Origin: Candidatus Omnitrophota bacterium
GTDB taxonomy: Bacteria; Omnitrophota; Gorgyraeia; Zapsychrales; Zapsychraceae
Direction of reading: 5' to 3'
Length of the DNA: 64,000 bases
Assembly (NCBI GenBank): GCA_015233115.1
Contig: JADFYJ010000006.1
Span: 65,801 to 129,800, forward strand
The position numbers and the translations under genes were made by a program. The notes below the pieces were generated by a model, which was given only the letters and a program-made list of their open reading frames with translations, was not told where the DNA came from and searched no databases. Positions 273 to 53,270 of the stretch are shown one piece after another (the first letter of the stretch is position 1; every line of letters begins with the position of its first letter).

Positions 273-420
273 GTAGGGGCGATCTCCCGATCGCCCGCAC
301 TATAAAAGATTTATAAATTTAACATTCCAGGGGTTTTTGGTTTAGTTTCATTTAAGTAAAAAAAACGAAAATTTTGTAAGCGGGCGATCGGGAGATCGCC
401 CCTACGACCAAGGACGTAAT
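273..420. repeat. GC-hairpin repeat element. Two perfect inverted copies of GTAGGGGCGATCTCCCGATCGCCCGC (273-300 and 380-406) around an 80-bp AT-rich spacer, then the tail GACCAAGGACGTAAT.
   Basis: Exact reverse complements were read directly. The same unit recurs at 15731-15859 and 48719-48757. Confidence 0.8.
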
Positions 421-497
421 GTCCGCGTAGTACCAGGAGCTCCGCGAGTGGTGCAAAACTTTGTGCTCTCTACTTTTTTATCAAGAAAGGTTTTTTT

Positions 498-1694
498 ATG
501 CATGAATCAATGATTGAAGAAGCAAAACAAAAATTTGGGGCTTTACTTTTGGACCAGTGCAAACGGGTAGAGAAGATGAAGCAGAATGCTGAAAAAGTTG
601 ATTTTTCTAAACTTAAACCTATTGTAATAGGGTCTTGCTGGGGAGATGGCATCGGGGAAGTTATTTCAAAATTAAGCCAGGAAGTTCTGACGTTTGTTTT
701 AAAGGATGATATGAAGGCCGGACGAGTGGTGATCAAGGATATCGCGGGCTTGACCATAGAGAACCGAGTCAAACACATGAAAGCAATTCCCGATGCTGTT
801 TTAGAAGAAATTAAGTCATGTCACGTTATTTTAAAAGGCCCGACGACTACACCGCAGGCCGGAGATCCCTGGCCTAACATCGAAAGCGCGAATGTCGCCA
901 TGCGCCGCGCTTTAGATTTATTTGCGAATGTCCGGCCGGTAAAAATTCCGCAAATGGGAATTGATTGGTGTTTTTTTCGGGAGAATACTGAAGGGGCATA
1001 CGTGCTGGGATCAAAAGGTTTTGATGTCACCGAAGATATCAGTGTCGATTTTACCGTAGCTACGGAGCAAGGTTCAGAACGGATCATTCGGATGGGATTT
1101 GAATACGCGCGGATGAACGGAAAGACGCAAATTACGATTGTGACCAAGTCAAATATAATTAAAACCACTGACGGCCGTTTTTCTAAAGTGGCCAAACGTA
1201 TAGCGCAAGAATATCCCGGAATCAAAATGGAAGAATGGTATGTGGATATTATGTCCGCGAAATTGATTGATCCGGAACGGCAAAAAGATTTCCAAGTGAT
1301 TATTCTGCCGAATTTATACGGCGATATTTTAACGGATGAAGCCGCGCAGATTCAAGGCGGAGTAGGGACAGCGGGAAGCGCCAATATTGGAAATCGGTGG
1401 TCCATGTTTGAAGCCATTCATGGCAGTGCGCCGCGCATGGTTAAAGAAGGCAGAGCCAAGTATGCTGACCCTTGTTCCATGATCCGCGCCAGCGCAATGT
1501 TGTTACGTCATATCGGATATATGGAGCAAGCGGAAAAAATTGAAATGGCTTTGGATGTGTGCGGTCAGTTTGAAAAGAACATGGTCATAACCGGGCGGGA
1601 TACCGGAGTGACGGGTAAAGAATTTACCGAGTATGTGTTGTCATGGATTAATAATCCGAAGTTGAAGCAAGCGTGGATGGATGGAATCGCGTAG
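498..1694 (+). CDS. Isocitrate/isopropylmalate dehydrogenase family protein (NAD(P)-dependent beta-decarboxylating dehydrogenase).
   Basis: GDGIGEV nucleotide-binding motif and NLYGDILTDEAAQIQGGVGTAGSANIG family signature. The N-terminal 30-40 aa may be over-called; an alternative start is M27. Confidence 0.75.
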   Translation: MHESMIEEAKQKFGALLLDQCKRVEKMKQNAEKVDFSKLKPIVIGSCWGDGIGEVISKLSQEVLTFVLKDDMKAGRVVIKDIAGLTIENRVKHMKAIPDAVLEEIKSCHVILKGPTTTPQAGDPWPNIESANVAMRRALDLFANVRPVKIPQMGIDWCFFRENTEGAYVLGSKGFDVTEDISVDFTVATEQGSERIIRMGFEYARMNGKTQITIVTKSNIIKTTDGRFSKVAKRIAQEYPGIKMEEWYVDIMSAKLIDPERQKDFQVIILPNLYGDILTDEAAQIQGGVGTAGSANIGNRWSMFEAIHGSAPRMVKEGRAKYADPCSMIRASAMLLRHIGYMEQAEKIEMALDVCGQFEKNMVITGRDTGVTGKEFTEYVLSWINNPKLKQAWMDGIA

Positions 1695-1972
1695 AGTGAC
1701 AAAGTAACCGAGTAACAGAGTAACAGAGAAAATGCGATTGATGGTAAAGCGATGATGGCACAGCAATAATAAAACTTTGTTATTTGTTTTAAAATTTTTT
1801 GAAAATATATTTTTTAGTTATACTCGTTTTATTAAATTATTTTTTGCAACGCCACGTTTATGCTTTGTTTTATAAATTTAACGTTTTTGTGCTGTCACAA
1901 TATTACGTTGTTGCTTTGTATTTCTGTTACGCTGTTGCTTTGTTACTCTGTTACTCGGTTACTCTGTTACTA
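1694..1972. repeat. Intergenic palindromic element, GTAACNGA arm subfamily. Forward arm 1694-1728, core AAAATGCGATTGATG, reverse arm about 1908-1970.
   Basis: Tandem GTAACCGA/GTAACAGA units and their reverse complement TCTGTTAC/TCGGTTAC. Fills the whole idh-lipB intergenic space. Confidence 0.8.
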
Positions 1973-1978
1973 TAAATT

Positions 1979-4177: not shown

Positions 4178-4183
4178 AAAATC

Positions 4184-4317
4184 GGTTGATGGTTGTTGGT
4201 TTGTGGTTAAAACATTAGTTTTTTTTAAAAGCACAATGTCATTATATTATTGGTTTTTAGTTGTTGGTTAAATTATTCGTTTTGTCCAAAAACCAAAAAC
4301 AATCAACCATCAACCAT
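4184..4317. repeat. Intergenic palindromic element, GGTTGTTGG subfamily. Outer perfect 12-bp IR GGTTGATGGTTG / CAACCATCAACC; inner 68-bp unit 4251-4317.
   Basis: Inner unit GGTTTTTAGTTGTTGGTT...TTGTCCAAAAACCAAAAAC...CATCAACCAT is nearly identical to 6873-6940. Confidence 0.8.
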
Positions 4318-5875: not shown

Positions 5876-5905
5876 GAGGGCATAGCCTATCGCCTGTTTT
5901 ATTAT

Positions 5906-6619: not shown

Positions 6620-6868
6620 ATGGAAATTGATTTTTTGAATTATGTTTTGAGTTTGGGATATCAAGCTATGGTTTTCTTAGGAGAAATACCTAATCCGTCG
6701 ACCAACAAAGAAGAAAAAAATTTGGATCAGGCGAAATTATTGATTGATACCTTGGTGATGTTGAAAGAAAAAACCCGGGGCAATCTTACTGAAGAAGAAG
6801 CGAATTTGTTAGAAAATTCACTCGCTGAATTGCAAATGAAGTACGTGGAGGCTGGAGCCAAAATATAA
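6620..6868 (+). CDS. DUF1844-family small protein.
   Basis: 82 aa; MEIDFLNYVLSLGYQAMVFLGEIPNP pattern typical of DUF1844. Confidence 0.5.
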   Translation: MEIDFLNYVLSLGYQAMVFLGEIPNPSTNKEEKNLDQAKLLIDTLVMLKEKTRGNLTEEEANLLENSLAELQMKYVEAGAKI

Positions 6869-6872
6869 AAGC

Positions 6873-6940
6873 GGTTTTTAGTTGTTGGTTGTTGAAAGTG
6901 TTTTTGTCCAAAAACCAAAAACTATAATCCATCAACCATG
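6873..6940. repeat. 68-bp GGTTGTTGG-subfamily repeat unit, near-copy of 4251-4317.
   Basis: GGTTTTTAGTTGTTGGTTGTTGAAAGTGTTTTTGTCCAAAAACCAAAAACTATAATCCATCAACCATG compared against 4251-4317. Confidence 0.8.
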
Positions 6941-6954
6941 AAAAGAGACAAGAC

Positions 6955-7923: not shown

Positions 7924-7940
7924 GAAGTAGATCCTTGATT

Positions 7941-7962
7941 GTGTACGGGATTTGTAGTACAC
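7941..7962. promoter_or_regulatory. Inverted repeat GTGTACgggatttgtaGTACAC upstream of relB, a candidate TA autoregulation operator.
   Basis: Palindrome lies 23 bp upstream of the antitoxin start codon. Confidence 0.4.
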
Positions 7963-7984
7963 TTTATTTGGAAAGGATAAAGAG

Positions 7985-8245
7985 ATGATAAAGCAATCAA
8001 GGGTTGAGGCCAGAGTCGCTTTGAAATTAAAAAATGAAGTCGGATCTGTATTAAAAAGACTGGACATTTCTGAATCGGAAGCGATTCGGATATATTTTAG
8101 GCAAATTGCTCTTACCAAAGGCATTCCTTTTGAAATAAAAATCCCTAATAAAGAAACGATCAGCGCGTTAAATGAAGTAACCACGGCTAAGTTAAGGGAA
8201 TTCAAAAGTTTTGATGAGTATCTTAAAGGTATCGATGCCGAATGA
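7985..8245 (+). CDS. RelB/DinJ-family antitoxin.
   Basis: 86 aa; ribbon-helix-helix-like N-terminus; overlaps the downstream RelE/YafQ toxin gene (ATGA). Confidence 0.65.
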   Translation: MIKQSRVEARVALKLKNEVGSVLKRLDISESEAIRIYFRQIALTKGIPFEIKIPNKETISALNEVTTAKLREFKSFDEYLKGIDAE

Positions 8246-8508
8246 GAATTATTTCTCCTACCAGACAATTTGACCGTGATTTAAAAAAATTATTAAAACG
8301 CAAAAAAGAAATATCAAAATTAAAAGCTGTGGTTGATTTGCTTTCGGGTGAAGGCCGACTGCCTTTAAAATATAAACCGCATGCATTAGTCGGTGATTGG
8401 ATCCCGTGTTGGGATTGTCATATAGAACCAGATTGGCTATTAATTTATCAAGTGACTGAGACTCACGTGTATTTATTCCGAATCGGTAGTCATTCAGATT
8501 TGTTTTAA
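8242..8508 (+). CDS. RelE/YafQ-family type II toxin (mRNA interferase).
   Basis: 88 aa; C-terminal HVYLFRIGSHSDLF resembles YafQ/RelE; 4-bp overlap with the antitoxin. Confidence 0.7.
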   Translation: MRIISPTRQFDRDLKKLLKRKKEISKLKAVVDLLSGEGRLPLKYKPHALVGDWIPCWDCHIEPDWLLIYQVTETHVYLFRIGSHSDLF

Positions 8509-8581
8509 TATATAGGGACAGTCCGTATTTATTCAAAGTTGTGTGTTAAGGCAGGAAGCGTTGGCAGGGATAATAAAATAA

Positions 8582-9595
8582 ATGAAATTAACTAAACGAT
8601 TTGACCATCAATTTTCAGACGTCATTAAGATGATTCACGCGTCTCGGTATAACGCCATCAAAAGCGTTAATGCTGAGCTTGTGAAGCTGTATTGGAGTGT
8701 GGGTGAGTACATCAGCAAGAAACTTGCTTCGGCTGAATGGGGAGATTCTGTTGTTGACAATCTTGCTGATTTTATCCAGGCTCACCACCCTGAATTTAAA
8801 GGTTTTACCCGTCGCGGTCTTTATCGGATGCGGCAGTTTTACGAATCCTATCGGGGTAGTAAATTTGTGTCAACACTGTTGACACAAATAAGCTGGTCCA
8901 GTCACTTGCATATACTTGCCAAAACTAAAACCATTGAAGAAAAAGAATTTTATCTGCGCCTCGCTATTAAAGAGAAATATTCTGTTCGTGAACTGGAGCG
9001 TCAGATTGATAGCGGCTATTTTGAGCGAGTGATGATCTCAAAGAAAAAAGTGTCACCACTGTTGACACAAATTCGTCCGGATGCTGTAGATGTGTTCAAA
9101 GATACCTATATCCTCGATTTTCTCAACCTCCCCGAAGCGCACAGCGAGAGCGATTTAAATCGAAGTATTGTTTCTAACCTTAAAGACTTTATTCTTGAAT
9201 TCGGCAAGGATTTTGCGTTTGTCGGCCAAGAATATCGTTTGCAAATAGGGAAAAGCGATTATTTCATTGATCTGCTATTCTTTCATCGTGGTCTGCGTTG
9301 CCTGGTTTTATTCGAGTTGAAAATAGACGATTTCAAGCCGGGATATATCGGTCAGTTGAATTTTTATCTTGAAGCGCTTGACCGTGATGTCAAAAAGCCG
9401 GATGAAAATCCCAGTGTAGGCATCATTCTGTGTAAGTCGAAAGATGATGAAGTGGTAGAATACGCGCTGAGCCGAAATCTTTCTCCAGCCTTGGTAGCTG
9501 AGTATAAAACAAAGCTTATTCCTAAAAAGATATTGGAAAAGAAATTGCATGAATATTACTTATTGGGCGAGTCTGTGAGAGAGAAGGAAAAATGA
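8582..9595 (+). CDS. YhcG-like PDDEXK nuclease (DUF1016 family).
   Basis: Internal duplicated LLTQI segments and a C-terminal D...EYK PD-(D/E)xK-like core; about 337 aa. Confidence 0.65.
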   Translation: MKLTKRFDHQFSDVIKMIHASRYNAIKSVNAELVKLYWSVGEYISKKLASAEWGDSVVDNLADFIQAHHPEFKGFTRRGLYRMRQFYESYRGSKFVSTLLTQISWSSHLHILAKTKTIEEKEFYLRLAIKEKYSVRELERQIDSGYFERVMISKKKVSPLLTQIRPDAVDVFKDTYILDFLNLPEAHSESDLNRSIVSNLKDFILEFGKDFAFVGQEYRLQIGKSDYFIDLLFFHRGLRCLVLFELKIDDFKPGYIGQLNFYLEALDRDVKKPDENPSVGIILCKSKDDEVVEYALSRNLSPALVAEYKTKLIPKKILEKKLHEYYLLGESVREKEK

Positions 9596-14478: not shown

Positions 14479-14486
14479 AAATTTAA

Positions 14487-14663
14487 GTAACAAAGTAACC
14501 GAGTAACAGAGAAAAAACGATTGGTTGAAAAAACATTGGGGTAGAAAACTTATATCCGGGTTTAGTTAATTTTTTTGTTTGGGATTTTTTAATGACTGAG
14601 TTTTTGTTTTTTATGTTTTTTTGTTGCTTTGTTACTCGGTTACTTTGTTACTCGGTTACTTTT
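14487..14663. repeat. Intergenic palindromic element, GTAACNGA subfamily. Forward arm 14487-14511, core AAAAAACGATTGGTTG, reverse arm 14621-14663.
   Basis: Tandem GTAACAAA/GTAACCGA/GTAACAGA units with their inverse at the other end; ends 17 bp before the pfkA ATG. Confidence 0.8.
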
Positions 14664-14679
14664 AAAATGAGGAGAAGTT

Positions 14680-15696
14680 ATGCGAAAGATTGGTATATTG
14701 ACAGGCGGTGCGGATTGTCCCGGACTGAATTCTGTAATCCGGGCGGTGGTGAGAAAAGCTATGCAGGAAGGGTTTGTAGTTACTGGAATTAAAAATGGCT
14801 GGAACGGGTTGATTGACAATGACATGAAGATTTTGGATCTTCGTATGACGTCAGGCATTTTAGACCGTGGTGGTACGATTTTGGGAACCAGCCGTTTAAA
14901 GCCGCCGTTATATCCGGAAAAAGAAGCTAAAGTTGTGGAAAATTTTAGGCGTAGCGGCATCGACGCCATCATAGCTGTGGGCGGCGAAAATACTCTACAG
15001 ATTGGGCTGGATCTTTATAAAAAACACTCTATTCCAGTTGTCGGTGTTCCGAAATCTATTGATAATGCTTTGTGCGGGACTGATTACGCGTTTGGATTTG
15101 ATACAGCTGTCAACGTGGCAACGGAATGCATTGACCGTTTGCATACTACTGCCGAAAGCCATCATCGGATTATTGTCATCGAAGTTATGGGCAGATATAC
15201 AGGGTGGATTGCTCTTGAAGCAGGGATTGCCGGTGGCGCGGATATTATTTTAGTTCCGGAAATTCCGATCGATATCGAAGAAACATGTGCTTTAGTTAAG
15301 GCTCGTCATCGCCGAGGAAAAAATTTCAGCTTGATCGTGGTATCTGAAGGTGCCAAAATTAAAGGAACGGTTGAGCCTGAACGGGGGCAAACGCTCATCC
15401 ATACTCCCCACATTGGCGAGATTATTGGTAAATGCGTTGAAGAAGAAACCGGTTATGAAACCCGGGTCAGTGTTTTAGGACATATTCAACGGGGCGGGAC
15501 GCCAAGCGCGTATGACCGTTTGATTGGGACACAGTTCGGAGTGAAAGCGGTTGATCTGGTTAAAGAAAGCAATTTTGGCCAAATGGTGAGTTTACATGAT
15601 GGTCAAATCTGCTCAGTAAGTATCGCCGAAGCGGTAAGAAAACATAAAGCCATAGATCAGGCTTTGTTTGAAATCGCGAAATTGTTTTCTGATTAA
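14680..15696 (+). CDS. pfkA: 6-phosphofructokinase (ATP- or PPi-dependent PFK-A family).
   Basis: GGADCPGLNSVIR, GGENT and MGRYTGWIA motifs; 338 aa. Confidence 0.85.
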   Translation: MRKIGILTGGADCPGLNSVIRAVVRKAMQEGFVVTGIKNGWNGLIDNDMKILDLRMTSGILDRGGTILGTSRLKPPLYPEKEAKVVENFRRSGIDAIIAVGGENTLQIGLDLYKKHSIPVVGVPKSIDNALCGTDYAFGFDTAVNVATECIDRLHTTAESHHRIIVIEVMGRYTGWIALEAGIAGGADIILVPEIPIDIEETCALVKARHRRGKNFSLIVVSEGAKIKGTVEPERGQTLIHTPHIGEIIGKCVEEETGYETRVSVLGHIQRGGTPSAYDRLIGTQFGVKAVDLVKESNFGQMVSLHDGQICSVSIAEAVRKHKAIDQALFEIAKLFSD

Positions 15697-15697
15697 A

Positions 15698-15912
15698 ATA
15701 GGTAATAGGCAATAGGCTAGAGGTGACGCTGTTGTAGGGGAGATCTCCTGATCTCCCGTTGCAAAATTATCGTTTTTTGGTTTTTATTTAAAAACGATTG
15801 ATGCGGGCGATCAGGAGATCGCCCCTACGAATAATTTTGTATGCGACCAAGGACGTAATTTAAAAAAGTTTTTTATTGGATTTTTTACCTATAGCCTATC
15901 GCCTATGACCTC
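15698..15912. repeat. Composite nested element. Outer ATAGGC-type inverted arms (15698-15724 / 15890-15912) enclose a GC-hairpin pair (15731-15758 / 15804-15829), core AAAAACGATTGATG and tail GCGACCAAGGACGTAAT.
   Basis: Read directly. Unit 1 carries compensatory changes (GGGAGATC...GATCTCCC) relative to the GGGCGATC...GATCGCCC unit. Confidence 0.8.
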
Positions 15913-15925
15913 GTAAGGAATATAT

Positions 15926-16489
15926 ATGTTAAATAAATTAAAAAAAATTTGCGATGAATCCAATGCCGTAAAAACAGCGGCGTTTTCTGAAAATGCCGAT
16001 ACGATTGTGCGGGTGGTCAACGCCATCATAAAGGCTTTAAAAGCGGGTCATAAAGTTTTATTTTTTGGGAATGGTGGGTCAGCTGCGGATTCTCAGCATT
16101 TGGCCGCGGAACTGATCGGCCGTTTTCAGAAAGAACGCGTTGCTTTTCCCTCGATCGCTTTAACGACAGATACTTCGATTATTACTGCTTTAGGGAATGA
16201 TTATGGTTTTGACGTGATTTTTGAACGGCAGATGGAGGCTTTAGGAAATGCCGGAGATGTCGCGGTCGGCTTATCAACGAGCGGGAATTCTGAAAATGTC
16301 ATTCGCGCCATTAAAAAAGCCAAAGCTAAAGGATTGATCACTGTATCCATGACCGGCCGTGACGGCGGTAAATTAAAATCCCTGACGGATATGAGTATTG
16401 TCGTTCGCGATCAAAACACTGCCCGCGTCCAGGAATCACACATCTGCATCGGCCATGCTATATGTGAATTGGTGGAAAGTGGTATTTAA
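15926..16489 (+). CDS. gmhA: Phosphoheptose isomerase (SIS domain).
   Basis: SIS-domain motifs FGNGGSAADSQHLAAEL and GLSTSGNSENV; about 187 aa. Confidence 0.85.
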   Translation: MLNKLKKICDESNAVKTAAFSENADTIVRVVNAIIKALKAGHKVLFFGNGGSAADSQHLAAELIGRFQKERVAFPSIALTTDTSIITALGNDYGFDVIFERQMEALGNAGDVAVGLSTSGNSENVIRAIKKAKAKGLITVSMTGRDGGKLKSLTDMSIVVRDQNTARVQESHICIGHAICELVESGI

Positions 16490-18056: not shown

Positions 18057-18228
18057 CGTATGTGGTATGGGGCATGTAGTATGTAGTAAAAAACGATTGT
18101 GTGAAATGAAAAGGATAGAGAATATAATCTAAATACTTAATGTTTTTTGGGGTGATTAATTTTAAATTCTTTATTTTTTTATCAGTTGATTTTACTACAT
18201 ACGACATACTACGTACTACATACTTAGG
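18057..18228. repeat. Intergenic palindromic element, GTATGTRG subfamily. Forward arm 18057-18089, core AAAAAACGATTGTGTGAAATG, reverse arm 18191-18228.
   Basis: GTATGTGG/GTATGTAG tandem units and the inverse CTACATAC units; between tRNA-Gly and the M23 peptidase gene. Confidence 0.8.
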
Positions 18229-25472: not shown

Positions 25473-25479
25473 TAAAAAA

Positions 25480-25695
25480 GTATGTGGTATGTGGTATGTC
25501 GTATGTGGTGAAAAAAGCGATTTGTGAAAAGTATTAATGGTGATTACTAGCAGGAAAAATTTTGGATGTTTATATTAAATAATATATTTTAGTAGATGTT
25601 TATTTTTTAGGTTTTTTTTTAATTTATTTTTTTATTGGTCATTTGCTTATCGGTTTTTGTTTTTGCTACATACGACATACCATATACCACATACG
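25480..25695. repeat. Intergenic palindromic element, GTATGTRG subfamily. Forward arm 25480-25510, core AAAAAAGCGATTTGTGAAAAG, reverse arm 25663-25695.
   Basis: Tandem GTATGTGG units and the inverse CTACATACGACATACCATATACCACATACG. Confidence 0.8.
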
Positions 25696-25710
25696 TTACC
25701 AGGATTACTT

Positions 25711-26334: not shown

Positions 26335-26351
26335 AATTTGTTTTAAATGGA

Positions 26352-26380
26352 TTATAAATTATAATTGAAATTATAATTTA
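26352..26380. promoter_or_regulatory. AT-rich palindrome TAAATTATAATTGAAATTATAATTTA upstream of vapB, a candidate TA operator.
   Basis: Perfect inverted repeat directly upstream of the antitoxin SD (AAGGAGGG). Confidence 0.4.
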
Positions 26381-26384
26381 TACG

Positions 26385-26645
26385 GTGTATACTTTGTTTA
26401 AGGAGGGAATAGTTATGTCGCAAGTGACAATATATTTACAAGATAATTTAATTTCTAAACTGAAAAAAAGAGCTCAACTAAAAAAAGAATCGTTATCAAA
26501 ATATATTACCAGTATTTTAGAAAAAAAAGAAATTGACGAATGGCCGGAAAAATATTTATCTTTATGCGGGAGTATCAAAGAGGATAACTTTGTCCGGGCT
26601 CATCAAGGCTCTTATGAACAGGATGTTACAAGGAAAGAAATGTGA
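26385..26645 (+). CDS. VapB-like antitoxin.
   Basis: 86 aa; stop overlaps the GTG start of the PIN-domain gene (ATGTGA). Confidence 0.55.
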   Translation: MYTLFKEGIVMSQVTIYLQDNLISKLKKRAQLKKESLSKYITSILEKKEIDEWPEKYLSLCGSIKEDNFVRAHQGSYEQDVTRKEM

Positions 26646-27040
26646 TTTTTTTCCTGGATACAAATATTTGTATTGATTTTTTAAAAGGGCATAAAGATGT
26701 TATTGAACATTTAATAAAGTATTATCATCCGAGTCAAATAAAAATATCCACTATTGTCCGCGCGGAATTGATTCATGGAGCATTTAAGAGCCAAAATAGT
26801 CATAAAAATTTAGAAAAGGTTAATTCTTTTTTAGAGCCCTTTGAAGTTGTTTCTTTTGATATAAAAGCATCAAATATTTACGGCCAAATTAGAGCGGAAT
26901 TAGAAAAAAGAGGAGAGATCATTGGGCCTATGGATTTATTAATTGCGGCTACAGTAATTAGCCATGAAGGTGTTTTGATAACTGAAAACAAAAAAGAATT
27001 TTTAAGGATTGAACAGTTAAAAATTTTTACGTCAATTTAG
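26642..27040 (+). CDS. vapC: VapC PIN-domain toxin.
   Basis: FLDTNICIDFL N-terminal PIN motif with conserved acidic residues; 132 aa. Confidence 0.75.
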   Translation: MIFFLDTNICIDFLKGHKDVIEHLIKYYHPSQIKISTIVRAELIHGAFKSQNSHKNLEKVNSFLEPFEVVSFDIKASNIYGQIRAELEKRGEIIGPMDLLIAATVISHEGVLITENKKEFLRIEQLKIFTSI

Positions 27041-28928: not shown

Positions 28929-28946
28929 CCTCAGATTAAAGTATAA

Positions 28947-28980
28947 CAAAAGCGCTGGTCTTAACTGACCAGCGCTTTTT
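28947..28980. terminator. Bidirectional rho-independent terminator AAAAGCGCTGGTC-ttaact-GACCAGCGCTTTTT between convergent genes.
   Basis: Perfect 11-bp stem flanked by an A-run and a T-run. Confidence 0.7.
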
Positions 28981-28988
28981 AAATAGTA

Positions 28989-29240
28989 TTACTCGCCATA
29001 ATGCGTCTTAGCGCGTTCAATGTAAACAATTTTTGCTTTTTCATCTATCGAATAAACCAGACGGTCTTTTATGTTGAGGCGAAATGAATAACTTCCAAAG
29101 AGATCACCGATTAATTTTTTTCCAGAATACGGATCTAGGGCGATCAGATTAATGAGGATTTCTTTGAGTTTTAATTTAAGCTTCGGAGTGAGTTTTTCAA
29201 TGTCTTTTTTTGCTTGGTGAGTGATTTGGATACTGTACAT
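28989..29240 (-). CDS. RelE/ParE-family type II toxin.
   Basis: 83 aa; RelE/ParE-like YSFRLNIKDRLVYSIDEKAKIVYIERAKTH; translationally coupled to the upstream Phd/YefM gene. Confidence 0.7.
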   Translation of the reverse strand: MYSIQITHQAKKDIEKLTPKLKLKLKEILINLIALDPYSGKKLIGDLFGSYSFRLNIKDRLVYSIDEKAKIVYIERAKTHYGE

Positions 29241-29245
29241 GATAG

Positions 29246-29500
29246 CTAGTCTTTAAAAACATCATCCATTGAATAAACTTTGCCTTGTTTGATTTCTTTT
29301 TTCGCTTGCTGGACGCTTTTAAGAAGTCCCGGCTCTGATAACAATTCCAGGGTTTCCATTAAATCTTCATAATCATTTTCTGACAACAAAACCGCATTCC
29401 CGTCTTTAGATGTAATATGCACAGGATTATGCCCGTTTATGGATTTTTTTATCAATTCAAACCAATTATTTCGCGCGTAGGTCGCTGTAATTAAATTCAT
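29246..29500 (-). CDS. Phd/YefM-family antitoxin.
   Basis: 84 aa; N-terminal ITATYARNNWFELIKK...VHIT and C-terminal DYEDLMETLELL Phd/YefM pattern. Confidence 0.7.
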   Translation of the reverse strand: MNLITATYARNNWFELIKKSINGHNPVHITSKDGNAVLLSENDYEDLMETLELLSEPGLLKSVQQAKKEIKQGKVYSMDDVFKD

Positions 29501-29512
29501 AATTATAACCTC

Positions 29513-29538
29513 CTTATGTACATAATATAGTACATAAG
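29513..29538. promoter_or_regulatory. Inverted repeat CTTATGTACATAATATAGTACATAAG immediately upstream of the - strand phd/relE operon, a candidate operator.
   Basis: Near-perfect palindrome adjacent to the antitoxin start. Confidence 0.4.
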
Positions 29539-29608
29539 AGCTTTATTGTCAATGTGGGTCAGTATTTTTTAGTTTTTGGCTATATGCTACATGCCATATG
29601 CTATTTAA

Positions 29609-30145
29609 TTATTTCGCCACTTTTAGCGTAAGCTCCACGCCGTCTTTCACTAATTTTACGGATTGCAGGTCTATGGATTGGATTGTGTAACCATCTATCT
29701 CTGCGCCGGTCTCGTACACTTCACCATTAATGAGCGCGACTTTTTTAGTGCCGGTTGACATGATGCCGCTAATCACAAAAGTCGGCGCTTGTGTCGGCGG
29801 AGCAGTATGCACGATAGGAGGCACCGAAGCTGTGGGTAATGCTGTGATTGCTTGAGTTGACACTTTTGATGCCGTAACCGGTGAAGGCGATTTTTGTGTT
29901 AAATTTTTTGATTTGTGATTGATCGCGACAGTGTTGTAGACCGTGATGCATAAAAGGACAAGACAGACACCCACCAAGATCTTGATCATGATTCCATGAT
30001 TTTCATTGTTGGGCTCTATTGGCAACGGCGAAATAAATGATTGGTCATTTCCAACCGGATTCGGTTGTTCAGTTGGTTGGTTGGTTTGCGTGTTCTTTTG
30101 CATAACATTTTGGGTTTTTTTAAGCGCGTCATTAATGATGCTCAT
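29609..30145 (-). CDS. GspB/ExeB-like general secretion pathway accessory protein.
   Basis: MSIINDALKK N-terminus typical of GspB, one TM helix, and partnered with gspA upstream with 4-bp overlap. Confidence 0.5.
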   Translation of the reverse strand: MSIINDALKKTQNVMQKNTQTNQPTEQPNPVGNDQSFISPLPIEPNNENHGIMIKILVGVCLVLLCITVYNTVAINHKSKNLTQKSPSPVTASKVSTQAITALPTASVPPIVHTAPPTQAPTFVISGIMSTGTKKVALINGEVYETGAEIDGYTIQSIDLQSVKLVKDGVELTLKVAK

Positions 30146-30954
30146 TTGATAAATACCTCCTCGGCACTGTTCTGTACCATATTTTCATCGATGACGGTTG
30201 ATTCCGCGATAAAACCCGCCAATAAAGCCCGGTCGCACAAAATGTTGACCAGCCGTGGTGTGCCGTTGGATAACTGGTAAATTTGTTCAAGCGCTTTAGA
30301 TGAAAAGGTAATTTTACAAGGGAGAGAGTGGGAGGCGATTTTTATGCGGTGATGAATATAGTCCGACATGTCAGCTTTTTCTAAAGGCGCTAAGTGATAC
30401 CGTACAAAAATACGTTGATTGAGTTGGGTCAATTCCGGAAGATTTAGCATGTAATTGAGTTCCGGCTGTCCGACGAGAATTATTTGCAATAATTTTTCTT
30501 TTTCTGTTTCCAGATTGGAAAGCATGCGGATTTGTTCCAGCTGTCGCGGCTTTAAGTTTTGCGCTTCGTCAATGATTAGGACGACATTATGATTTTTATT
30601 CGTCTCTTCAATGAGAAAATCATTTAAGGCGTTCATCAGATCAAATTTATTTTTAAATTTACCGGTAATACCGAGATCTTTGAGGATTAGGTTTAAAAGC
30701 TGAAGGTCTGTGAAGCTGGGATTTAAAATCAGCGCGGTCTTGACGGTTTTATCTAGTTTATTGAGGAGTATCCGGCAAAGCGTAGTTTTTCCGGTTCCAA
30801 TCTCACCAGAAATAACAATAATCCCTTTCCGGTTCATGATCCCGTACTTGAGGTGACTGAACGCTTCCTCATGTTTAGGACTGGAAAAATAAAATCCCGG
30901 ATCAGCTGTGATACTGAAAGGATTTTCCTTAAGATGGTAAAAGGCTTTATACAT
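30142..30954 (-). CDS. gspA: GspA/ExeA-family AAA ATPase.
   Basis: FYHLKENPFSITADP...GIIVISGEIGTGKTTLCR (ExeA N-terminal motif and Walker A), Walker B VVLIIDEAQ. Confidence 0.8.
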   Translation of the reverse strand: MYKAFYHLKENPFSITADPGFYFSSPKHEEAFSHLKYGIMNRKGIIVISGEIGTGKTTLCRILLNKLDKTVKTALILNPSFTDLQLLNLILKDLGITGKFKNKFDLMNALNDFLIEETNKNHNVVLIIDEAQNLKPRQLEQIRMLSNLETEKEKLLQIILVGQPELNYMLNLPELTQLNQRIFVRYHLAPLEKADMSDYIHHRIKIASHSLPCKITFSSKALEQIYQLSNGTPRLVNILCDRALLAGFIAESTVIDENMVQNSAEEVFIK

Positions 30955-32710: not shown

Positions 32711-32755
32711 TTGACTTTGTTACTCTGTTGCAGGGTTACTTTGTTACTCTGTCAT
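32711..32755. repeat. Solo reverse-type GTAACNGA arm (TTGTTACTCTGTT...GGTTACTTTGTTACTCTGTCA) with no forward partner.
   Basis: Same 8-mer units as the arms at 1936-1970, 14621-14663, 35355-35394 and 43428-43467. Confidence 0.6.
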
Positions 32756-32778
32756 TTTTTAATTCAGGAGGTTTCTGC

Positions 32779-33278: not shown

Positions 33279-35264
33279 TTGAACGCTTTTAAATTAAAAA
33301 GTCCATTTAAACCAGTGACTGAACAATTGGATGCGGTTGAGCGATTGTATCAGGGCATGAAAAATGGTTCCAAAGCGCAAGTGCTTTTAGGTGTCACTGG
33401 TTCCGGGAAAACTTTTACTCTGGCGAATGTCATTGAACGCTTAAACCGTCCGACCTTAGTAATTTCCCACAATAAAACTTTAGCAGCCCAACTGTATTCT
33501 GAGTTTAAAGAATTTTTTCCTGAAAACGCGGTGGAATATTTCGTAAGCTATTACGATTATTATCAGCCTGAAGCGTATGTTCCCCAAACTGATTTGTATA
33601 TTGAAAAAGACGCGGCTATTAATGACCGGCTCGACCGTCTGCGTTTATCATCAACCACCAGTCTCATGACCCGCCGGGATGTGATCGTGGTGGCCAGCGT
33701 TTCATGCATTTATAATTTAGGTTCACCGGAAGATTACACTCAATATCTGCTGCAGATGAAGGTGGGTCAGGAAATTGATCGGGATGAAATGGTTCGTCAA
33801 TTAGTGGATATCCAATATGAACGTAATGACGTGGATTTTAGCCGCGGAAAAATCCGGGTGAGAGGGGACACTGTGGAAGTGTTTCCGGCTTATCGTCAGG
33901 ATGCGTTACGGATCAGGTTTTTCGGCGATGAAATAGAACGGATTAGCCAAATCGACCCTTTAACCGGCGACGAACAAGTCCGCTTAGACCAAGCCGCGGT
34001 TTATCCGGCCAAACATTTTATTATTTCTCATCCCCGTCTGGAAATAGCTTGTCTGCAGATTGAGAATGAAATGAAAGAACAAGTTGCCTTGCTGCAGAAA
34101 GACGGAAAATTGGTGGAAGCTCAGCGATTAGAGTCCCGGACCAGATATGATTTAGAAATGATGAGGAGTATTGGGTATTGTAATGGCATTGAAAATTACT
34201 CACGGGTTTTGTCTGAGCGGCCCCCAGGCAGTCGTCCGTCTTGTTTGATTGATTATTTTCCTAAGGATTTTATTACCTTGATTGATGAATCTCATGTGAC
34301 GGTCCCGCAATTAAATGGAATGTACGCGGGCGACAGGGCAAGGAAAGAAACTCTGGTTAGATACGGCTTTCGTTTACCGTCGTGTTTGGACAACCGGCCG
34401 CTTAAATTTACGGAATTTGAAAAAGTGGTGGATCAACGCATTTATGTGTCTGCCACGCCTAGCCCGTATGAGATTAAAGATGCCCAGGGCCAAGTCGTGG
34501 AACAGATTATCCGTCCGACCGGGATCGTTGACCCCATGATTGAAGTCCGCCCGACCACTGGCCAGATTGAGGATTTGTTAAAAGAAATTAACAGCCGCGC
34601 AGAGCGTAATGAACGCGTTTTAGTGACGACCTTAACCAAACGAATGTCTGAGGACTTAAGTGAATTTTTAGCGGATCGCGGCGTTAAAGTGAAATATCTG
34701 CATTCGGATATTCAAACCATAGACCGGACTAAAATTTTAAAAGATCTACGGTTGAAGAAATACGATTGTCTGGTGGGAGTGAATTTGTTAAGGGAAGGGC
34801 TTGATTTACCTGAGGTGTCTCTCGTCGCGATTTTGGATGCGGATAAGCAAGGTTTTTTACGTTCTGAAACCTCTTTGATTCAGACTTCAGGCCGCGCCGC
34901 GCGTAATGTGAACGGCATTGTCATCATGTACGCGGATACAGTCAGCCAGGCTATGGCCAAGACTATTTTTGAATGCCAGCGTCGAAGAAAAATTCAGCTG
35001 GCGTTTAACATGGAGCATCATATTACACCAACCACCATTATTAGAGCTTTGAGTGAAGGGATTGAAAGTTTGGCCGTTGAAGAGGGTGACGAAGTGCTAC
35101 TTGACGCAGTAGGCCAAAGTGAGGCAGAATATAACCTTAGTTCTTATATCAGTGAACTTGAAGCAGACATGGAACAGGCCGCGCGAAATTTACATTTCGA
35201 AAAAGCCGCGCAAATAAGGGATAAGATTGAAGAAGTAAAAAAAAGTAACCGAGTAACAGAGTAA
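33279..35264 (+). CDS. uvrB: Excinuclease ABC subunit B.
   Basis: GVTGSGKTF Walker A, helicase motifs, beta-hairpin region, C-terminal UVR domain (LHFEKAAQIRDKIEE). The last 6 codons (SNRVTE) lie inside the repeat arm. Confidence 0.95.
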   Translation: MNAFKLKSPFKPVTEQLDAVERLYQGMKNGSKAQVLLGVTGSGKTFTLANVIERLNRPTLVISHNKTLAAQLYSEFKEFFPENAVEYFVSYYDYYQPEAYVPQTDLYIEKDAAINDRLDRLRLSSTTSLMTRRDVIVVASVSCIYNLGSPEDYTQYLLQMKVGQEIDRDEMVRQLVDIQYERNDVDFSRGKIRVRGDTVEVFPAYRQDALRIRFFGDEIERISQIDPLTGDEQVRLDQAAVYPAKHFIISHPRLEIACLQIENEMKEQVALLQKDGKLVEAQRLESRTRYDLEMMRSIGYCNGIENYSRVLSERPPGSRPSCLIDYFPKDFITLIDESHVTVPQLNGMYAGDRARKETLVRYGFRLPSCLDNRPLKFTEFEKVVDQRIYVSATPSPYEIKDAQGQVVEQIIRPTGIVDPMIEVRPTTGQIEDLLKEINSRAERNERVLVTTLTKRMSEDLSEFLADRGVKVKYLHSDIQTIDRTKILKDLRLKKYDCLVGVNLLREGLDLPEVSLVAILDADKQGFLRSETSLIQTSGRAARNVNGIVIMYADTVSQAMAKTIFECQRRRKIQLAFNMEHHITPTTIIRALSEGIESLAVEEGDEVLLDAVGQSEAEYNLSSYISELEADMEQAARNLHFEKAAQIRDKIEEVKKSNRVTE

Positions 35265-35394
35265 CAGAGCAAAAGCGATTGCTGGAAAAAACGATAGGCG
35301 ATATAAAATAATTTTTTTGAGGTTTTGTTTAGAGATTTTATATAATTTTTTTGTTTTTACTTTGTTACTCTGTCACTTGGTTACTTTGTTACTA
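35244..35394. repeat. Intergenic palindromic element, GTAACNGA subfamily. Forward arm 35244-35269 overlaps the uvrB 3' end; core CAAAAGCGATTGCTGG; reverse arm 35355-35394.
   Basis: AGTAACCGAGTAACAGAGTAACAGAG versus AGTAACAAAGTAACCAAGTGACAGAGTAACAAAG (reverse complement). Confidence 0.8.
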
Positions 35395-35426
35395 TTTAAA
35401 CCTTTCAGGCAAGATCGGATAATAAT

Positions 35427-36593: not shown

Positions 36594-36617
36594 TAAATAG
36601 GGGAACATGATGTTTTA

Positions 36618-36702
36618 TTGTTGATGGTTGATAGTTTTTGGTTTTTGGAAAAAACGGATGATTTCAACAGCAAAATCAACAACCAACAACCAAAAACCGA
36701 CA
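36618..36702. repeat. Intergenic palindromic element, GGTTGTTGG subfamily. Forward TTGTTGATGGTTGATAGTTTTTGGTTTTTGG, core AAAAAACGGATGATTTC, reverse AACAACCAACAACCAAAAACC.
   Basis: Lies between groES and groEL. Confidence 0.75.
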
Positions 36703-38402: not shown

Positions 38403-38503
38403 AAAAAATGGTGTCTGCTCTCGACTAAAAAACATAAGACAGCGCTTTGCGCTGTCTTATGTTTTTTAAACAAGTGTTTAAAGTCGAGATCTGACACCAT
38501 TTT
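38403..38503. terminator. Compound terminator. Inner hairpin CATAAGACAGCGC-tttg-GCGCTGTCTTATG (38437-38466) with a T-run, nested inside the outer inverted repeat AAAAATGGTGTCTGCTCTCGAC / GTCGAGATCTGACACCATTTTTTT.
   Basis: Both pairings were read directly. The outer-arm motif GGTGTCTG.TCTCGA recurs at 39901-39926. Confidence 0.65.
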
Positions 38504-38504
38504 T

Positions 38505-41107: not shown

Positions 41108-41114
41108 TGAAACA

Positions 41115-41279
41115 GTATGTGGTATGTGGCATGTAGTATGTAGTATGTAGTATGTAGTATGTAGGGAAAAGCGATTGGTGTGAAATGCTATGGAGAACTC
41201 AGCTCTTCCTGTATAAAAATTTTTTTTATATTTTTTAATTTTTTTACTACATACGACATACTACGAACTACATACTATC
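41115..41279. repeat. Intergenic palindromic element, GTATGTRG subfamily. Forward arm 41115-41164 with 6 or more tandem TATGTAG units, core GGAAAAGCGATTGGTGTGAAATG, reverse arm 41240-41279.
   Basis: Read directly. Confidence 0.85.
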
Positions 41280-43036: not shown

Positions 43037-43042
43037 GAAAAA

Positions 43043-43467: not shown

Positions 43468-43489
43468 TTTACGAGCTGCCCATTTTAAT

Positions 43490-47320: not shown

Positions 47321-47390
47321 TAAACAACCACAAATTTACAAAATTTCAATCCAAAAACCAACAACCAAAAACCATTAACCAATCAAAATT
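47321..47390. repeat. Solo reverse-type GGTTGTTGG-subfamily arm (CCAAAAACCAACAACCAAAAACC...).
   Basis: Matches the right arms of 4184-4317, 6873-6940 and 36618-36702. Confidence 0.55.
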
Positions 47391-48707: not shown

Positions 48708-48718
48708 GTGAACGTCGC

Positions 48719-48757
48719 TGTTGTAGGGGCGATCTCCTGATCGCCCGAACCATAAAA
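48719..48757. repeat. Solo GC-hairpin unit GTTGTAGGGGCGATCTCCTGATCGCCCGAACCATAAAAG.
   Basis: About 90% identical to 271-308, including the ATAAAAG tail; begins 12 bp after the hisS stop. Confidence 0.75.
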
Positions 48758-48880
48758 GAATAAATTTTAATACGATAATATTTTTTGATAAAGAAAATAA
48801 AATCTGTATAATATTACCTTAATCTGTTTGTTTTTGTTAAATGCGTGAAGTATAAAATTTTTTGAAAGGATTTTAAATAA

Positions 48881-53211: not shown

Positions 53212-53270
53212 CAACGTGCGCCGTTCGCGGGAGCTCACGGCACTACTCGGACATTGCGTCCTCGGTCGCA

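What the first reader, a model, noticed from the sequence alone, without database searches (positions are those of the whole stretch)
15698..15912. Nested composite repeat locus with compensatory changes that preserve a local GC hairpin
Outer ATAGGC-type inverted arms enclose two inverted GC-hairpin units. Unit 1 is GGGGAGATCTCCTGATCTCCC; unit 2 and the copies at 273 and 380 are GGGGCGATC...GATCGCCC. The C-to-A and G-to-T changes in unit 1 are complementary within that unit. The local hairpin is kept while pairing with unit 2 is weakened. That is the signature of selection on the local stem-loop. The element also carries the shared tail GACCAAGGACGTAAT, seen at 406-420 and 15845-15859.
Basis: seen in the sequence. 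Interest (0 to 1): 0.6.

Follow-up and report, generated by a model that had tools for sequence, protein, structure and literature searches.

The report
Nested REP-type palindromes in an operon gap
The 229-base gap between two genes of an uncultured Omnitrophota bacterium holds a head-to-head pair of GTAG-tagged REP-type hairpin repeats inside a larger fold-back repeat, which is a known kind of selfish or structural bacterial repeat; the single "compensatory" base-pair change is real but is what such repeats normally show.

Summary
The GC-hairpin unit is non-random in the window: 5 copies against 0 expected.

The units have the anatomy of GTAG-tagged repetitive extragenic palindromes (REPs). 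Each has an unpaired GTAG head, an 8-bp GC-rich stem and a 4-nt loop, and all are intergenic. Two of the three loci are head-to-head doublets (REPIN-like) with 45- and 81-nt spacers.

- **Outer arms:** the "ATAGGC" arms are complementary 7-nt tandem arrays. They belong to a class of about 12 paired fold-back modules that fill gene junctions on this contig.
- **Insertion:** one relative has only 2 nt at the same pfk-gmhA junction, so the whole locus is a lineage-specific insertion pile-up.
- **Tail:** the shared tail is the 5' end of a second GTAG-type element.
- **C-G to A-T change:** it keeps the local hairpin, but it is one event in five copies (shuffle control 102/500). Hairpin-templated mutation could also produce it. 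Hairpin-preserving changes are already described for REPs.
- **Untested:** no RAYT transposase lies in the window, and I could not reach the rest of the genome. My two large database scans used a pattern with one C too many, so they could not match this family.

Verdict: a new member of a known kind, of modest interest. The fold-back module class deserves separate study.

The parts
15697..15724 (+). Outer left arm. It is a tandem array of a 7-nt unit (AATAGGY, about 4 units), starts directly after the pfk stop codon, and carries stop codons in all three + frames.
15729..15758 (+). REP-A unit 1, the variant copy. It has the conserved flank CTGTT, an unpaired GTAG head, the stem GGGAGATC/GATCTCCC (8 bp), the loop TCCT and a closing G. 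An A-T pair replaces the family's C-G pair.
15759..15803 (+). Spacer of the REP doublet. It contains its own hairpin (ATCGTTTTT 15769-15777 with AAAAACGAT 15790-15798) and the box AAAAACGATTGATG (15790-15803). The same box follows the left arm of seven other modules in the window.
15804..15828 (-). REP-A unit 2, with consensus stem and T in the loop. With unit 1 it forms a head-to-head doublet with the GTAG heads on the outside.
15845..15859 (+). A 15-nt fragment: the 5' end of a second repeat, REP-B. It is truncated here before REP-B's own GTAG hairpin.
15887..15911 (+). Outer right arm. It is the complementary 7-nt tandem array (CCTATNG-type units) and ends 14 nt before the gmhA start codon.
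273..405 (+). REPIN-1, a second head-to-head doublet of REP-A. The units lie at 273-298 (+) and 380-405 (-), form a perfect 26-nt inverted repeat with an 81-nt spacer, and both have C in the loop.
406..455 (+). Full REP-B element directly abutting REPIN-1. It has a small hairpin GGACGTAATGTCC followed by GTAG and an imperfect palindrome, TACCA...TGGTG.
48718..48759 (+). Solo REP-A (GTAG at 48723) in the hisS-aspS gap. Over 42 nt it is 93% identical to the left half of REPIN-1, so it looks like a half-doublet remnant.
   Evidence: family D10
53221..53267 (-). Diverged REP-B copy in the opposite orientation. Its stem is TGCCGT/ACGGCG, which differs from the 406 copy by compensated A-T to G-C changes while keeping a T.G wobble.
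5880..5897 (+). Solo fragment of an ATAGGC-type right arm. ATAGCCTATCGCCT matches 15892-15905 at 14 of 14 positions. This shows that the outer arm sequence is itself a repeat family.

Best explanation
The pfk-gmhA gap of this Omnitrophota contig is a pile-up of small non-coding repeat elements. They were inserted into a gene junction that one relative still keeps almost gapless.

**Inner elements.** The two inner GC hairpins are GTAG-tagged repetitive extragenic palindromes arranged as a head-to-head doublet (REPIN-like). In other bacteria such units are thought to be copied as single-stranded DNA hairpins by a REP-associated tyrosine (HUH/Y1) transposase, which recognises the GTAG head together with the stem. 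Once in place they persist as stable stem-loops in DNA and in the operon transcript.

**Outer element and tail.** The doublet sits inside a fold-back module whose arms are complementary arrays of a 7-nt unit. A fragment of a second GTAG-type element lies beside it.

**The double change.** The C-G to A-T change in unit 1 keeps that unit's hairpin, as REP sub-families typically do. The cause is either that only hairpin-competent copies are recognised or retained, or that one arm of a palindrome templates repair of the other.

**Shown:** the anatomy, the repetition, the insertion status and the hairpin preservation.

**Inferred:** mobilisation by a RAYT-type enzyme, and any role in the RNA.
For: **Anatomy**
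- All 5 copies have an unpaired GTAG, an 8-bp GC-rich stem and a 4-nt loop.
- There are 5 copies against 0 expected by chance.
- All 5 copies are intergenic.
- Two of the three loci are head-to-head doublets with 45- and 81-nt spacers. This is within the 20-100 bp range reported for GTAG-REP dimers (PMC3733652).

**Doublet as a unit**
- The two partners of each doublet share the same loop base, C/C at locus 1 and T/T at locus 2.
- The solo copy shares 42 nt at 93% with the left half of REPIN-1 (family D10). This fits singlets being remnants of doublets (PMC3116915).

**Precedent in the literature**
- Stem-variant heterodimers.
- Nesting of GTAG dimers inside long palindromes.
- 'Selection for complementary mutations' in REPs.
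- GTAG REPs in the PVC (Planctomycetes-Verrucomicrobia-Chlamydiae) superphylum.

**Insertion status**
- The same junction is 2 nt in L047, 14 nt in L043 and 90 nt in L048.
- In L042 it is 247 nt of unrelated sequence.

**Alternatives that found nothing**
- No ORF of any size in the gap.
- No Rfam family.
- No promoter or + strand terminator consensus.

**Related observations**
- REP-B, a second GTAG-type element, also shows compensated stem changes, and it occurs on both strands.
- Similar-looking GTAG hairpins with compensated stem variants occur in unrelated genomes: L012, L041 and L001.
Against: - No Y1/HUH transposase domain was found in the 37 window ORFs scanned, nor by a crude motif search of the window and loci.
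- The rest of the genome could not be reached. Genome-wide copy number and the defining association with a RAYT (REP-associated tyrosine transposase) are therefore untested.
- Only 5 copies are known, so the covariation evidence is statistically weak.
- None of the related Omnitrophota loci I fetched carries this unit, even allowing up to 5 substitutions. There is therefore no evidence of spread or age.
- The box AAAAACGATTG occurs both in the doublet spacer and next to the left arm of other modules. The order of nesting is therefore ambiguous: a doublet inserted into a module, or two separate REP insertions around a module core.
Confidence: 0.65

Rival explanations
1. Host-selected RNA element. 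The local GC stem-loops, or the whole roughly 215-nt hairpin, act in the operon mRNA as a stabiliser, a processing site (for example for RNase III) or an attenuator. Selection on that RNA structure would then explain the compensatory change.
For: - The gap lies between co-directional genes and is very likely transcribed.
- The RNA fold is extremely stable: -93.7 kcal/mol, z = -10.3.
- The solo REP sits 15 nt after the hisS stop codon. This is the usual place for a 3' stabilising stem-loop.
- REPs are reported mainly downstream of coding regions, with proposed RNA roles.
Against: - The structure is equally stable on the minus strand, z = -10.4.
- There is no U-tract terminator on the + strand and no Rfam family.
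- The element is absent at the same junction in relatives, so it is not a conserved regulatory feature of this operon.
- REP-B keeps a strand-specific T.G wobble yet occurs in both orientations relative to the genes. That argues against an mRNA-sense function for that sister element.
- The covariation rests on a single event.
Confidence: 0.15
2. The paired substitutions are a mutational by-product rather than a product of selection. A first change was copied to the partner position by intrastrand template switching in the quasipalindrome, by slippage between the two GATCNCC direct repeats, or by both.
For: - Both new bases are the ones dictated by the pre-existing T in the middle GATCTCC segment.
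- After the change GATCTCC occurs twice, 8 nt apart, and GGAGATCTCC is a perfect 10-nt palindrome.
- Template switching in quasipalindromes is an established mutational mechanism in bacteria (general knowledge, not tested here).
- The partner unit 2, only 45 nt away, did not co-change. No force therefore maintained pairing at the level of the doublet.
Against: - This cannot be distinguished from selection with one event.
- Across GTAG-REP families compensated sub-families are common and are usually attributed to a hairpin constraint.
Confidence: 0.3
3. The palindromes are double-stranded DNA binding sites for a host protein, for example a GATC-related or nucleoid or gyrase-type factor of the kind that binds bacterial interspersed mosaic elements. 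They would not be mobile elements.
For: - Each unit carries two GATC sites in a symmetric context.
- REP clusters in enterobacteria bind IHF and gyrase (stated in PMC2817692, seen in the abstract listed).
Against: - There is no positional relation to promoters.
- The copies sit after stop codons at insertion-type junctions.
- The unpaired, asymmetric GTAG head is conserved 5/5, which a symmetric duplex site would not need.
Confidence: 0.07

Closest known systems
GTAG-tagged REPs and their head-to-head (HH) dimers (Nunvar et al. 2010, PMC2817692; Di Nocera et al. 2013, PMC3733652)
   Same: - Unpaired GT(A/G)G head, a 6-13 bp GC-rich stem and a 2-4 nt loop.
- Extragenic location, mostly after coding regions and between co-directional genes.
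- HH dimers 20-100 bp apart.
- Homodimers and stem-variant heterodimers.
- Complementary stem changes that define sub-families.
- Some dimer families sit inside longer palindromes.
- Known in the PVC superphylum.
   Different: - The stem and loop sequence GGGCGATC-TCCY-GATCGCCC could not be compared with the 24 published families, because no GATC-containing sequence appears in the held text of that paper and the figures are not held.
- The host phylum, Omnitrophota, does not appear together with REP terms in the paper library.
- Genome-wide copy number and the cognate transposase are unknown here.
REPINs, REP doublets forming hairpins, replicated by single-copy RAYTs (Bertels & Rainey 2011, PMC3116915)
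   Same: - Two inverted REPs plus a spacer fold into one long hairpin.
- Compensatory changes across the hairpin are described as common.
- A singlet looks like a remnant of a doublet (family D10).
   Different: - Here the compensated change is within one REP and weakens the doublet hairpin.
- Only two doublets are known, and their spacers are only weakly similar (9 of 500 shuffles reach the score).
- No RAYT was found.
Intergenic heptamer tandem repeats: long simple sequence repeats, such as the TAACTGA repeats of Beggiatoaceae, Cyanobacteria and Bacteroidetes (MacGregor 2015, PMC4679880)
   Same: This comparison applies to the outer arms.
- Short arrays of a 7-8-nt unit lie in intergenic regions close to start codons.
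- The forward orientation is full of stop codons, so the arrays can overlap gene ends only slightly.
   Different: - The published repeats are almost exclusively direct: 169 direct sets against 1 indirect.
- Here the arrays come as complementary pairs that bracket the whole gap and fold back on each other.
- The unit sequences differ and vary between module families.
MITEs and fold-back elements
   Same: This comparison applies to the outer module.
- It is short and non-coding, with terminal inverted repeats.
- It is multi-copy, has solo and truncated arms, and is absent from orthologous sites in a relative.
   Different: - I saw no target-site duplication, though I checked only by eye.
- No parent insertion sequence is known.
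- The terminal repeats are tandem arrays.
- All 12 paired modules have the stop-rich arm upstream.

Membership tests
GTAG-tagged REP | Small (20-40 bp) GC-rich imperfect palindrome forming a stem-loop | tested here: met
   The unit is 24-25 nt. An 8-bp stem and a 4-nt loop are predicted for all 5 copies, at -8.1 to -9.9 kcal/mol as single-stranded DNA.
GTAG-tagged REP | Unpaired GT(A/G)G head at one end of the palindrome | tested here: met
   GTAG is invariant in 5/5 copies, lies directly 5' of the stem and is left unpaired in the folds.
GTAG-tagged REP | Extragenic, repeated many times in the genome (typically more than 100 copies) | tested here: inconclusive
   - All 5 copies are intergenic, at three loci in 64 kb.
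- The rest of the genome could not be retrieved.
- My collection scans used a pattern that cannot match this unit.
GTAG-tagged REP | Frequent inverted (HH or TT) dimers 20-100 bp apart | tested here: met
   There are two HH dimers with 45- and 81-nt spacers.
GTAG-tagged REP / REPtron | A cognate RAYT (Y1/HUH transposase) gene flanked by the same REPs somewhere in the genome | tested here: inconclusive
   - No Y1_Tnp hit in the 37 window ORFs scanned.
- No motif hit.
- Absence from 64 kb says little, and the whole genome was not available.
REPIN | Two inverted REPs plus a spacer fold as one hairpin | tested here: met
   The minimum-energy fold pairs unit 1 with unit 2 and also the spacer hairpin, on both strands, z about -10.
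REPIN | Doublets are over-represented and better conserved than singlets (the doublet is the replicative unit) | not testable with these tools
   Only 2 doublets and 1 singlet are available. Hints exist: partners share the loop base, and the singlet matches the left half of a doublet.
Intrinsic (Rho-independent) terminator | GC-rich hairpin followed directly by a T/U run on the transcribed strand | tested here: not met
   No terminator-like site on the + strand in 15600-16000. No T run follows any REP-A copy.
Any curated RNA family (Rfam 15) | Match at the family's gathering score | tested here: not met
   The only gathering-level hit in the window is tRNA-Gly. In the locus there are only microRNA-precursor models, i.e. 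generic long hairpins, at 14-32 bits against gathering scores of 60-297.
MITE (outer fold-back module) | Terminal inverted repeats, a target-site duplication, and relation to a parent insertion sequence | tested here: inconclusive
   - Inverted arms are present.
- A second copy of the arm sequence lies at 5880-5897.
- No target-site duplication was evident in the flanks I read.
- No parent element is known.
Heptamer intergenic tandem repeats (LSSR / TAACTGA-type) | Tandem direct repeats of a 7-nt unit in intergenic DNA near start codons | tested here: met
   - Arrays at 15697-15717 and 15888-15906 have period 7 and about 3 copies each.
- The right arm ends 14 nt before the start codon.
- The unit sequence differs from TAACTGA, and the paired inverted arrangement is not part of that description.

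The most novel reading that the evidence does not exclude
The outer 'ATAGGC' arms may be one instance of an undescribed, genome-wide class of operon-junction fold-back modules in AT-rich Omnitrophota.

**Anatomy of the class (shown)**
- Paired complementary arrays of a 7- or 8-nt unit. Unit sequences differ between families (AGTAACNG, GTATGTRG, GGTTGNT, GTGAAAG, AATAGGC).
- A shared A-rich box, AAAA[AG]CGATTGNTG, just inside the left arm.
- The stop-codon-rich arm abuts the upstream stop codon, and the complementary arm ends 5-47 nt before the next start codon.
- All paired modules have the same orientation relative to the genes.

**Possible meaning (inferred)**
- In the operon transcript the arms would loop out the inserted DNA and bring the upstream stop and the downstream start back together. 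That could preserve translational coupling or create a double-stranded RNA processing site.
- The uniform orientation would then reflect either that RNA role or strand-specific single-stranded-DNA transposition.
- REP doublets such as the one in this finding would be secondary passengers inside these modules.
Probability: 0.3. Interest if true: 0.65.

Novelty: new member of a known kind. Interest (0 to 1): 0.3.

Why it matters
**If the identification is right.**
- GTAG-type REP and REPIN elements extend to Omnitrophota, an uncultured phylum allied to the PVC superphylum with small, gene-dense genomes.
- A clean example is added of REP doublets nested in larger palindromes at what is an almost gapless operon junction in at least one relative.
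- This has practical value for annotation, because such gaps should not be called regulatory RNAs.
- It also matters for MAG assembly, because these repeats can break contigs.
- It gives a starting point for finding the cognate transposase.

**The wider context.** About a dozen tandem-array fold-back modules expand tight gene junctions, all in one orientation. That is the more interesting lead. It bears on how compact genomes tolerate non-coding insertions inside operons.

Tried and rejected
**1. Collection scans with a faulty pattern (my error).** I scanned genome contigs and metagenome contigs with GTAGGGNNNATCTCCNGATNNNCCC.
- I found afterwards that the pattern demands a fourth C, i.e. a 9-bp stem. 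The window's units end GATCGCCC+G, so they cannot match.
- The hits are a look-alike set of GTAG hairpins in other phyla, plus one recurrent motif without complementary arms (GTAGGGCGAATCTCCTGATGAGCCC), possibly coding (not checked).
- I use them only as illustration.
- A corrected pattern run on viral contigs found nothing relevant.

**2. Retrieving the source contig by exact protein look-up.** This failed three times, although the proteins are in the protein collection as MBF0478756.1 and MBF0478793.1.

**3. Looking for a RAYT.**
- A regex for HUH and Y motifs found nothing.
- Pfam on 37 window ORFs found none.
- Pfam on ORFs next to a 9-copy REP cluster in an unrelated contig, L041, found none.

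**4. Homology between the window's pfk-gmhA gap and the 247-nt gap of the nearest relative, L042.** None was found: 106 of 300 shuffles score as high.

**5. Promoter reading of the AAAAACGATTGNTG box.** I considered an A-tract followed by a TTGNNN -35 element. By eye only one module (35271) has a well-spaced -10, and the consensus scan finds no promoter in the locus. Rejected as a general explanation.

**6. Other identities considered and rejected.** CRISPR repeat, riboswitch or small RNA, and small-ORF readings were rejected: there is no array, no Rfam hit and no ORF.

**7. Module-specific co-evolution of the arms.** Arms of different GTAAC-family modules pair with each other as well as arms within one module do. 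For example 1693-1732 with 43428-43467 is 93% complementary, against 84% within module 1. The arms are family-level sequences, not locus-specific covariation.

Full report
**Setting**

The window is a gene-dense stretch of a bacterial chromosome with nearly all genes on the + strand.
- Its GmhA-like and AspRS proteins are 100% identical to NCBI entries MBF0478756.1 and MBF0478793.1. Those entries come from a 149,334-bp contig of a 'Candidatus Omnitrophica/Omnitrophota bacterium' MAG (metagenome-assembled genome).
- The finding occupies the whole 229-nt gap between a phosphofructokinase gene (14680-15696) and a SIS-domain sedoheptulose-7-phosphate isomerase gene (15926-16489).
- The gap holds no ORF longer than 21 codons apart from two minus-strand ORFs (50 and 46 aa) that only run into its edges from the flanking genes.

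**Observation check**

- Units 15734-15758 and 15804-15828 are 92% complementary over 25 nt.
- The outer arms 15700-15724 and 15887-15911 are 88% complementary over 25 nt.
- The tail GACCAAGGACGTAAT is exact at 406 and 15845.
- Aligned, the five units are invariant except at the loop base and the two substitutions of unit 1, which fall on partner columns of the stem.

**What the inner units are**

An invariant GTAG sits directly 5' of the stem and stays unpaired when the unit is folded as single-stranded DNA. It is followed by an 8-bp stem and a 4-nt loop. This is the defining anatomy of GTAG-tagged repetitive extragenic palindromes (REPs):
- a 'GT(A/G)G head', a palindrome-forming sequence and a non-complementary middle (PMC2817692);
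- stems of 6-13 bp, loops mostly of 2-4 nt, and head-to-head dimers 20-100 bp apart (PMC3733652).

Here two of the three loci are head-to-head doublets with spacers of 45 and 81 nt. These are REPIN-like structures (PMC3116915).
- Within each doublet both partners carry the same loop base: C/C at 273/405 and T/T at 15734/15828.
- The solo copy at 48718-48759 is 93% identical over 42 nt to the left half of the first doublet, spacer start included (family D10). This fits the published view that singlets are remnants of doublets.
- The two spacers are only weakly similar to each other (9 of 500 shuffles reach the score).

GTAG REPs are already known from the PVC (Planctomycetes-Verrucomicrobia-Chlamydiae) superphylum, in Opitutus and Rhodopirellula.

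**The tail**

The 15-mer is the 5' end of a second element of about 50 nt, which I call REP-B.
- REP-B is complete at 406-455 (+). A diverged copy lies at 53221-53267 on the opposite strand.
- It consists of a small hairpin (GGACGYAATGTCC), then GTAG, then an imperfect palindrome.
- The two copies have stems TACCA/TGGTG and TGCCGT/ACGGCG. These differ by compensated A-T to G-C changes while keeping a T.G wobble.
- In the finding's locus only the first 15 nt survive.
- The 169-497 gap is therefore a small mosaic of REP-A doublet plus REP-B, and the finding's locus contains a truncated version of the same neighbourhood.

**The outer arms**

Tandem Repeats Finder shows that each outer arm is a period-7 array: AATAGGC x3.0 and CCTATAG x2.7. 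A second fragment of the right-arm sequence (ATAGCCTATCGCCT, 14/14) lies at 5880-5897.

This is not an isolated structure. About 12 gaps in the window are bracketed by complementary arrays of a 7- or 8-nt unit, and about 5 further solo arms occur.
- The unit families are AGTAACNG, GTATGTRG, GGTTGNT, GTGAAAG and AATAGGC.
- In my per-gap test, 12 gaps (10 fold-back modules, the first REP doublet, and the finding's own gap on its inner REP pair) have an inverted repeat that none of 200 shuffles reaches.
- The left arm starts between -26 and +9 nt from the upstream stop codon, and the right arm ends 5-47 nt before the next start codon.
- In 7 of 12 modules the left arm has stop codons in all three frames. 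In 9 of 12 the right arm has none.
- All 12 have the stop-rich arm upstream.
- Seven modules from two arm families carry the box AAAA[AG]CGATTGNTG immediately inside the left arm. Six of the seven exact matches to this box in the window are at such positions, one of them inside the finding's doublet spacer at 15790.
- Whole modules fold as long hairpins, with z = -5 to -7. The finding's gap folds at -93.7 kcal/mol, z about -10, on either strand, with unit 1 paired to unit 2 and the outer arms paired.

**These are insertions**

Gene order is conserved in related Omnitrophota contigs, but the junctions differ.

| Junction | Window | L047 | L043 | L048 | L042 |
|---|---|---|---|---|---|
| pfk-gmhA | 229 nt | 2 nt | 14 nt | 90 nt | 247 nt |
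| Junction before pfk | 201 nt | 12 nt | not compared | 196 nt | 9 nt |

- The 247 nt in L042 are nested palindromes with no detectable similarity to the window's gap.
- None of these relatives carries REP-A, even allowing 5 substitutions.
- Two AT-rich relatives, L048 and L054, have their own tandem-array fold-back modules built from other units (CCAATAAC, GTACTAAG, GAGTYAA, GTGCTAAG). Some of these enclose GC hairpins.

Nesting of small GC hairpins inside larger fold-backs thus recurs in this group. It also has a published precedent: GTAG-15 dimers of Anabaena variabilis lie inside long palindromes.

**The compensatory change**

The C-G to A-T replacement is real and keeps the local hairpin: -8.1 kcal/mol against -9.6 to -9.9. 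By my hand estimate, two independent substitutions would hit partner positions with complementary bases about 1% of the time. The evidence is thin, however.
- There is one event. Seven of eight pairs are invariant, and the shuffle control reaches the observed value in 102 of 500 trials.
- Both new bases are the ones the unit's own middle segment would template. After the change GATCTCC is a perfect 7-nt direct repeat and GGAGATCTCC a perfect palindrome. Slippage or quasipalindrome template switching is therefore an adequate non-selective explanation (sequence reading plus general knowledge, not tested).
- The energetically preferred fold of the locus is still the long unit 1-unit 2 hairpin.

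Hairpin-preserving complementary changes and stem-variant 'heterodimers' are already part of the published description of REPs. The look-alike GTAG hairpins that my scans pulled from other phyla illustrate the same behaviour. Examples are GCGCTC/GAGCGC versus GCGATC/GATCGC in L012, and GGTCGAATC/GATTCGACC versus GGGCGAATC/GATTCGCCC in L041.

**Mechanism**

- **Shown:** the repeat-family status, the GTAG-plus-hairpin anatomy, the doublet organisation, the insertion status, the absence of coding, Rfam, promoter or terminator signals, and the preservation of the hairpin.
- **Inferred from the REP literature:** the units are, or were, mobilised as single-stranded DNA hairpins by a RAYT (REP-associated tyrosine transposase, a Y1/HUH enzyme). 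After that they persist as stable structures in DNA and in the operon transcript.
- **A hint towards a DNA-level rather than mRNA-level constraint:** REP-B keeps a strand-specific T.G wobble but occurs in both orientations relative to the genes. This rests on two copies only.
- **For the outer modules:** the uniform orientation could reflect either an RNA-level role or strand-biased single-stranded-DNA insertion. An RNA role could be looping out the insert so that stop and start codons stay adjacent, or double-stranded RNA processing. The window cannot separate these, because transcription and probably replication run the same way.

**Limits**

- The defining RAYT association is untested. No Y1 transposase domain occurs in the 37 window ORFs scanned, and the rest of the genome was unreachable.
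- My two large scans used a pattern with one C too many, which cannot match the window's own units. They say nothing about how widespread this exact family is.

**Verdict**

The locus is best filed as a new (Omnitrophota) member of the GTAG-REP/REPIN kind, nested in a fold-back module. Interest is modest. The fold-back module class around it is the more novel lead.

Noticed in passing
window 1693-1973, 2621-2770, 4181-4317, 6864-6944, 14485-14665, 18057-18224, 25477-25697, 35239-35395, 36608-36702, 41109-41277, 43038-43472; solo arms at 5880-5897, 29575-29608, 32714-32760, 47345-47387 and 53269-53300: About 12 paired and 5 solo fold-back modules fill gene junctions. Their arms are complementary tandem arrays of a 7- or 8-nt unit, in several unit families. 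All have the same orientation, with the stop-rich arm abutting the upstream stop codon. They are absent at the same junctions in relative L047. They look like an undescribed class of junction-filling elements.
   Followed up: partly
window 1730, 14513, 15790, 18089, 25513, 35271, 41167, 43077: A conserved A-rich box, AAAA[AG]CGATTGNTG, lies immediately inside the left arm of modules from different arm families and also inside the REP doublet spacer. In some modules it is repeated about 16 nt later. Its function is unknown. A promoter -35 reading did not hold up.
   Followed up: partly
window 406-455 (+) and 53221-53267 (-): A second GTAG-type palindromic element, REP-B, has compensated stem changes (A-T to G-C twice) and a conserved T.G wobble. 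It is present in both orientations.
   Followed up: partly
window 38404-38504: After the gene ending at 38402, a 23-nt inverted repeat (GGTGTCTGCTCTCGACT-type arms) encloses a textbook bidirectional intrinsic terminator: an A run, then ATAAGACAGCGC-TTTG-GCGCTGTCTTAT, then a T run. This is another nested palindrome.
   Followed up: no
window 38508-38588 and 38748-38828: An 81-nt direct repeat (89% identical) lies inside a 394-codon ORF (38505-39689) that has no Pfam hit. Each copy contains short period-7 arrays. It is unclear whether this stretch is coding.
   Followed up: no
window 54964-63054: A 2696-aa ORF has no Pfam domain and has internal repeats spaced about 760-800 nt apart (60940, 61699, 62500).
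   Followed up: no
window 7924-9595, 26335-27040, 28929-30954, 63133-63732: These are insertions relative to the conserved Omnitrophota gene order. They comprise small ORFs I read as toxin-antitoxin-like (not scanned), a PIN-domain gene, a YhcG PDDEXK nuclease, a minus-strand AAA_22 ATPase pair and a Zeta-toxin-like gene.
   Followed up: no
L048 6187-6366, 8689-8884, 18543-18740; L054 1570-1788, 3776-3963, 6708-6923: Other AT-rich Omnitrophota contigs carry their own tandem-array fold-back modules with different units (CCAATAAC, GTACTAAG, GAGTYAA, GTGCTAAG). Some have inner GC hairpins and a shared inner motif, GAGTGCG...AAGCACACAATNGCTTA.
   Followed up: partly
L041 6198-7609; L012 5932-7737; L016/L018/L021/L026: Unrelated genomes carry clusters of GTAG hairpins with the same ...ATCTCCNGAT... 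core and a 9-10-bp stem. They show compensated stem variants and T.G wobbles. The hosts are an 800-kb metagenome contig, Gordonibacter and a 43% GC metagenome organism. This suggests a widespread REP super-family sharing this loop-proximal sequence.
   Followed up: partly
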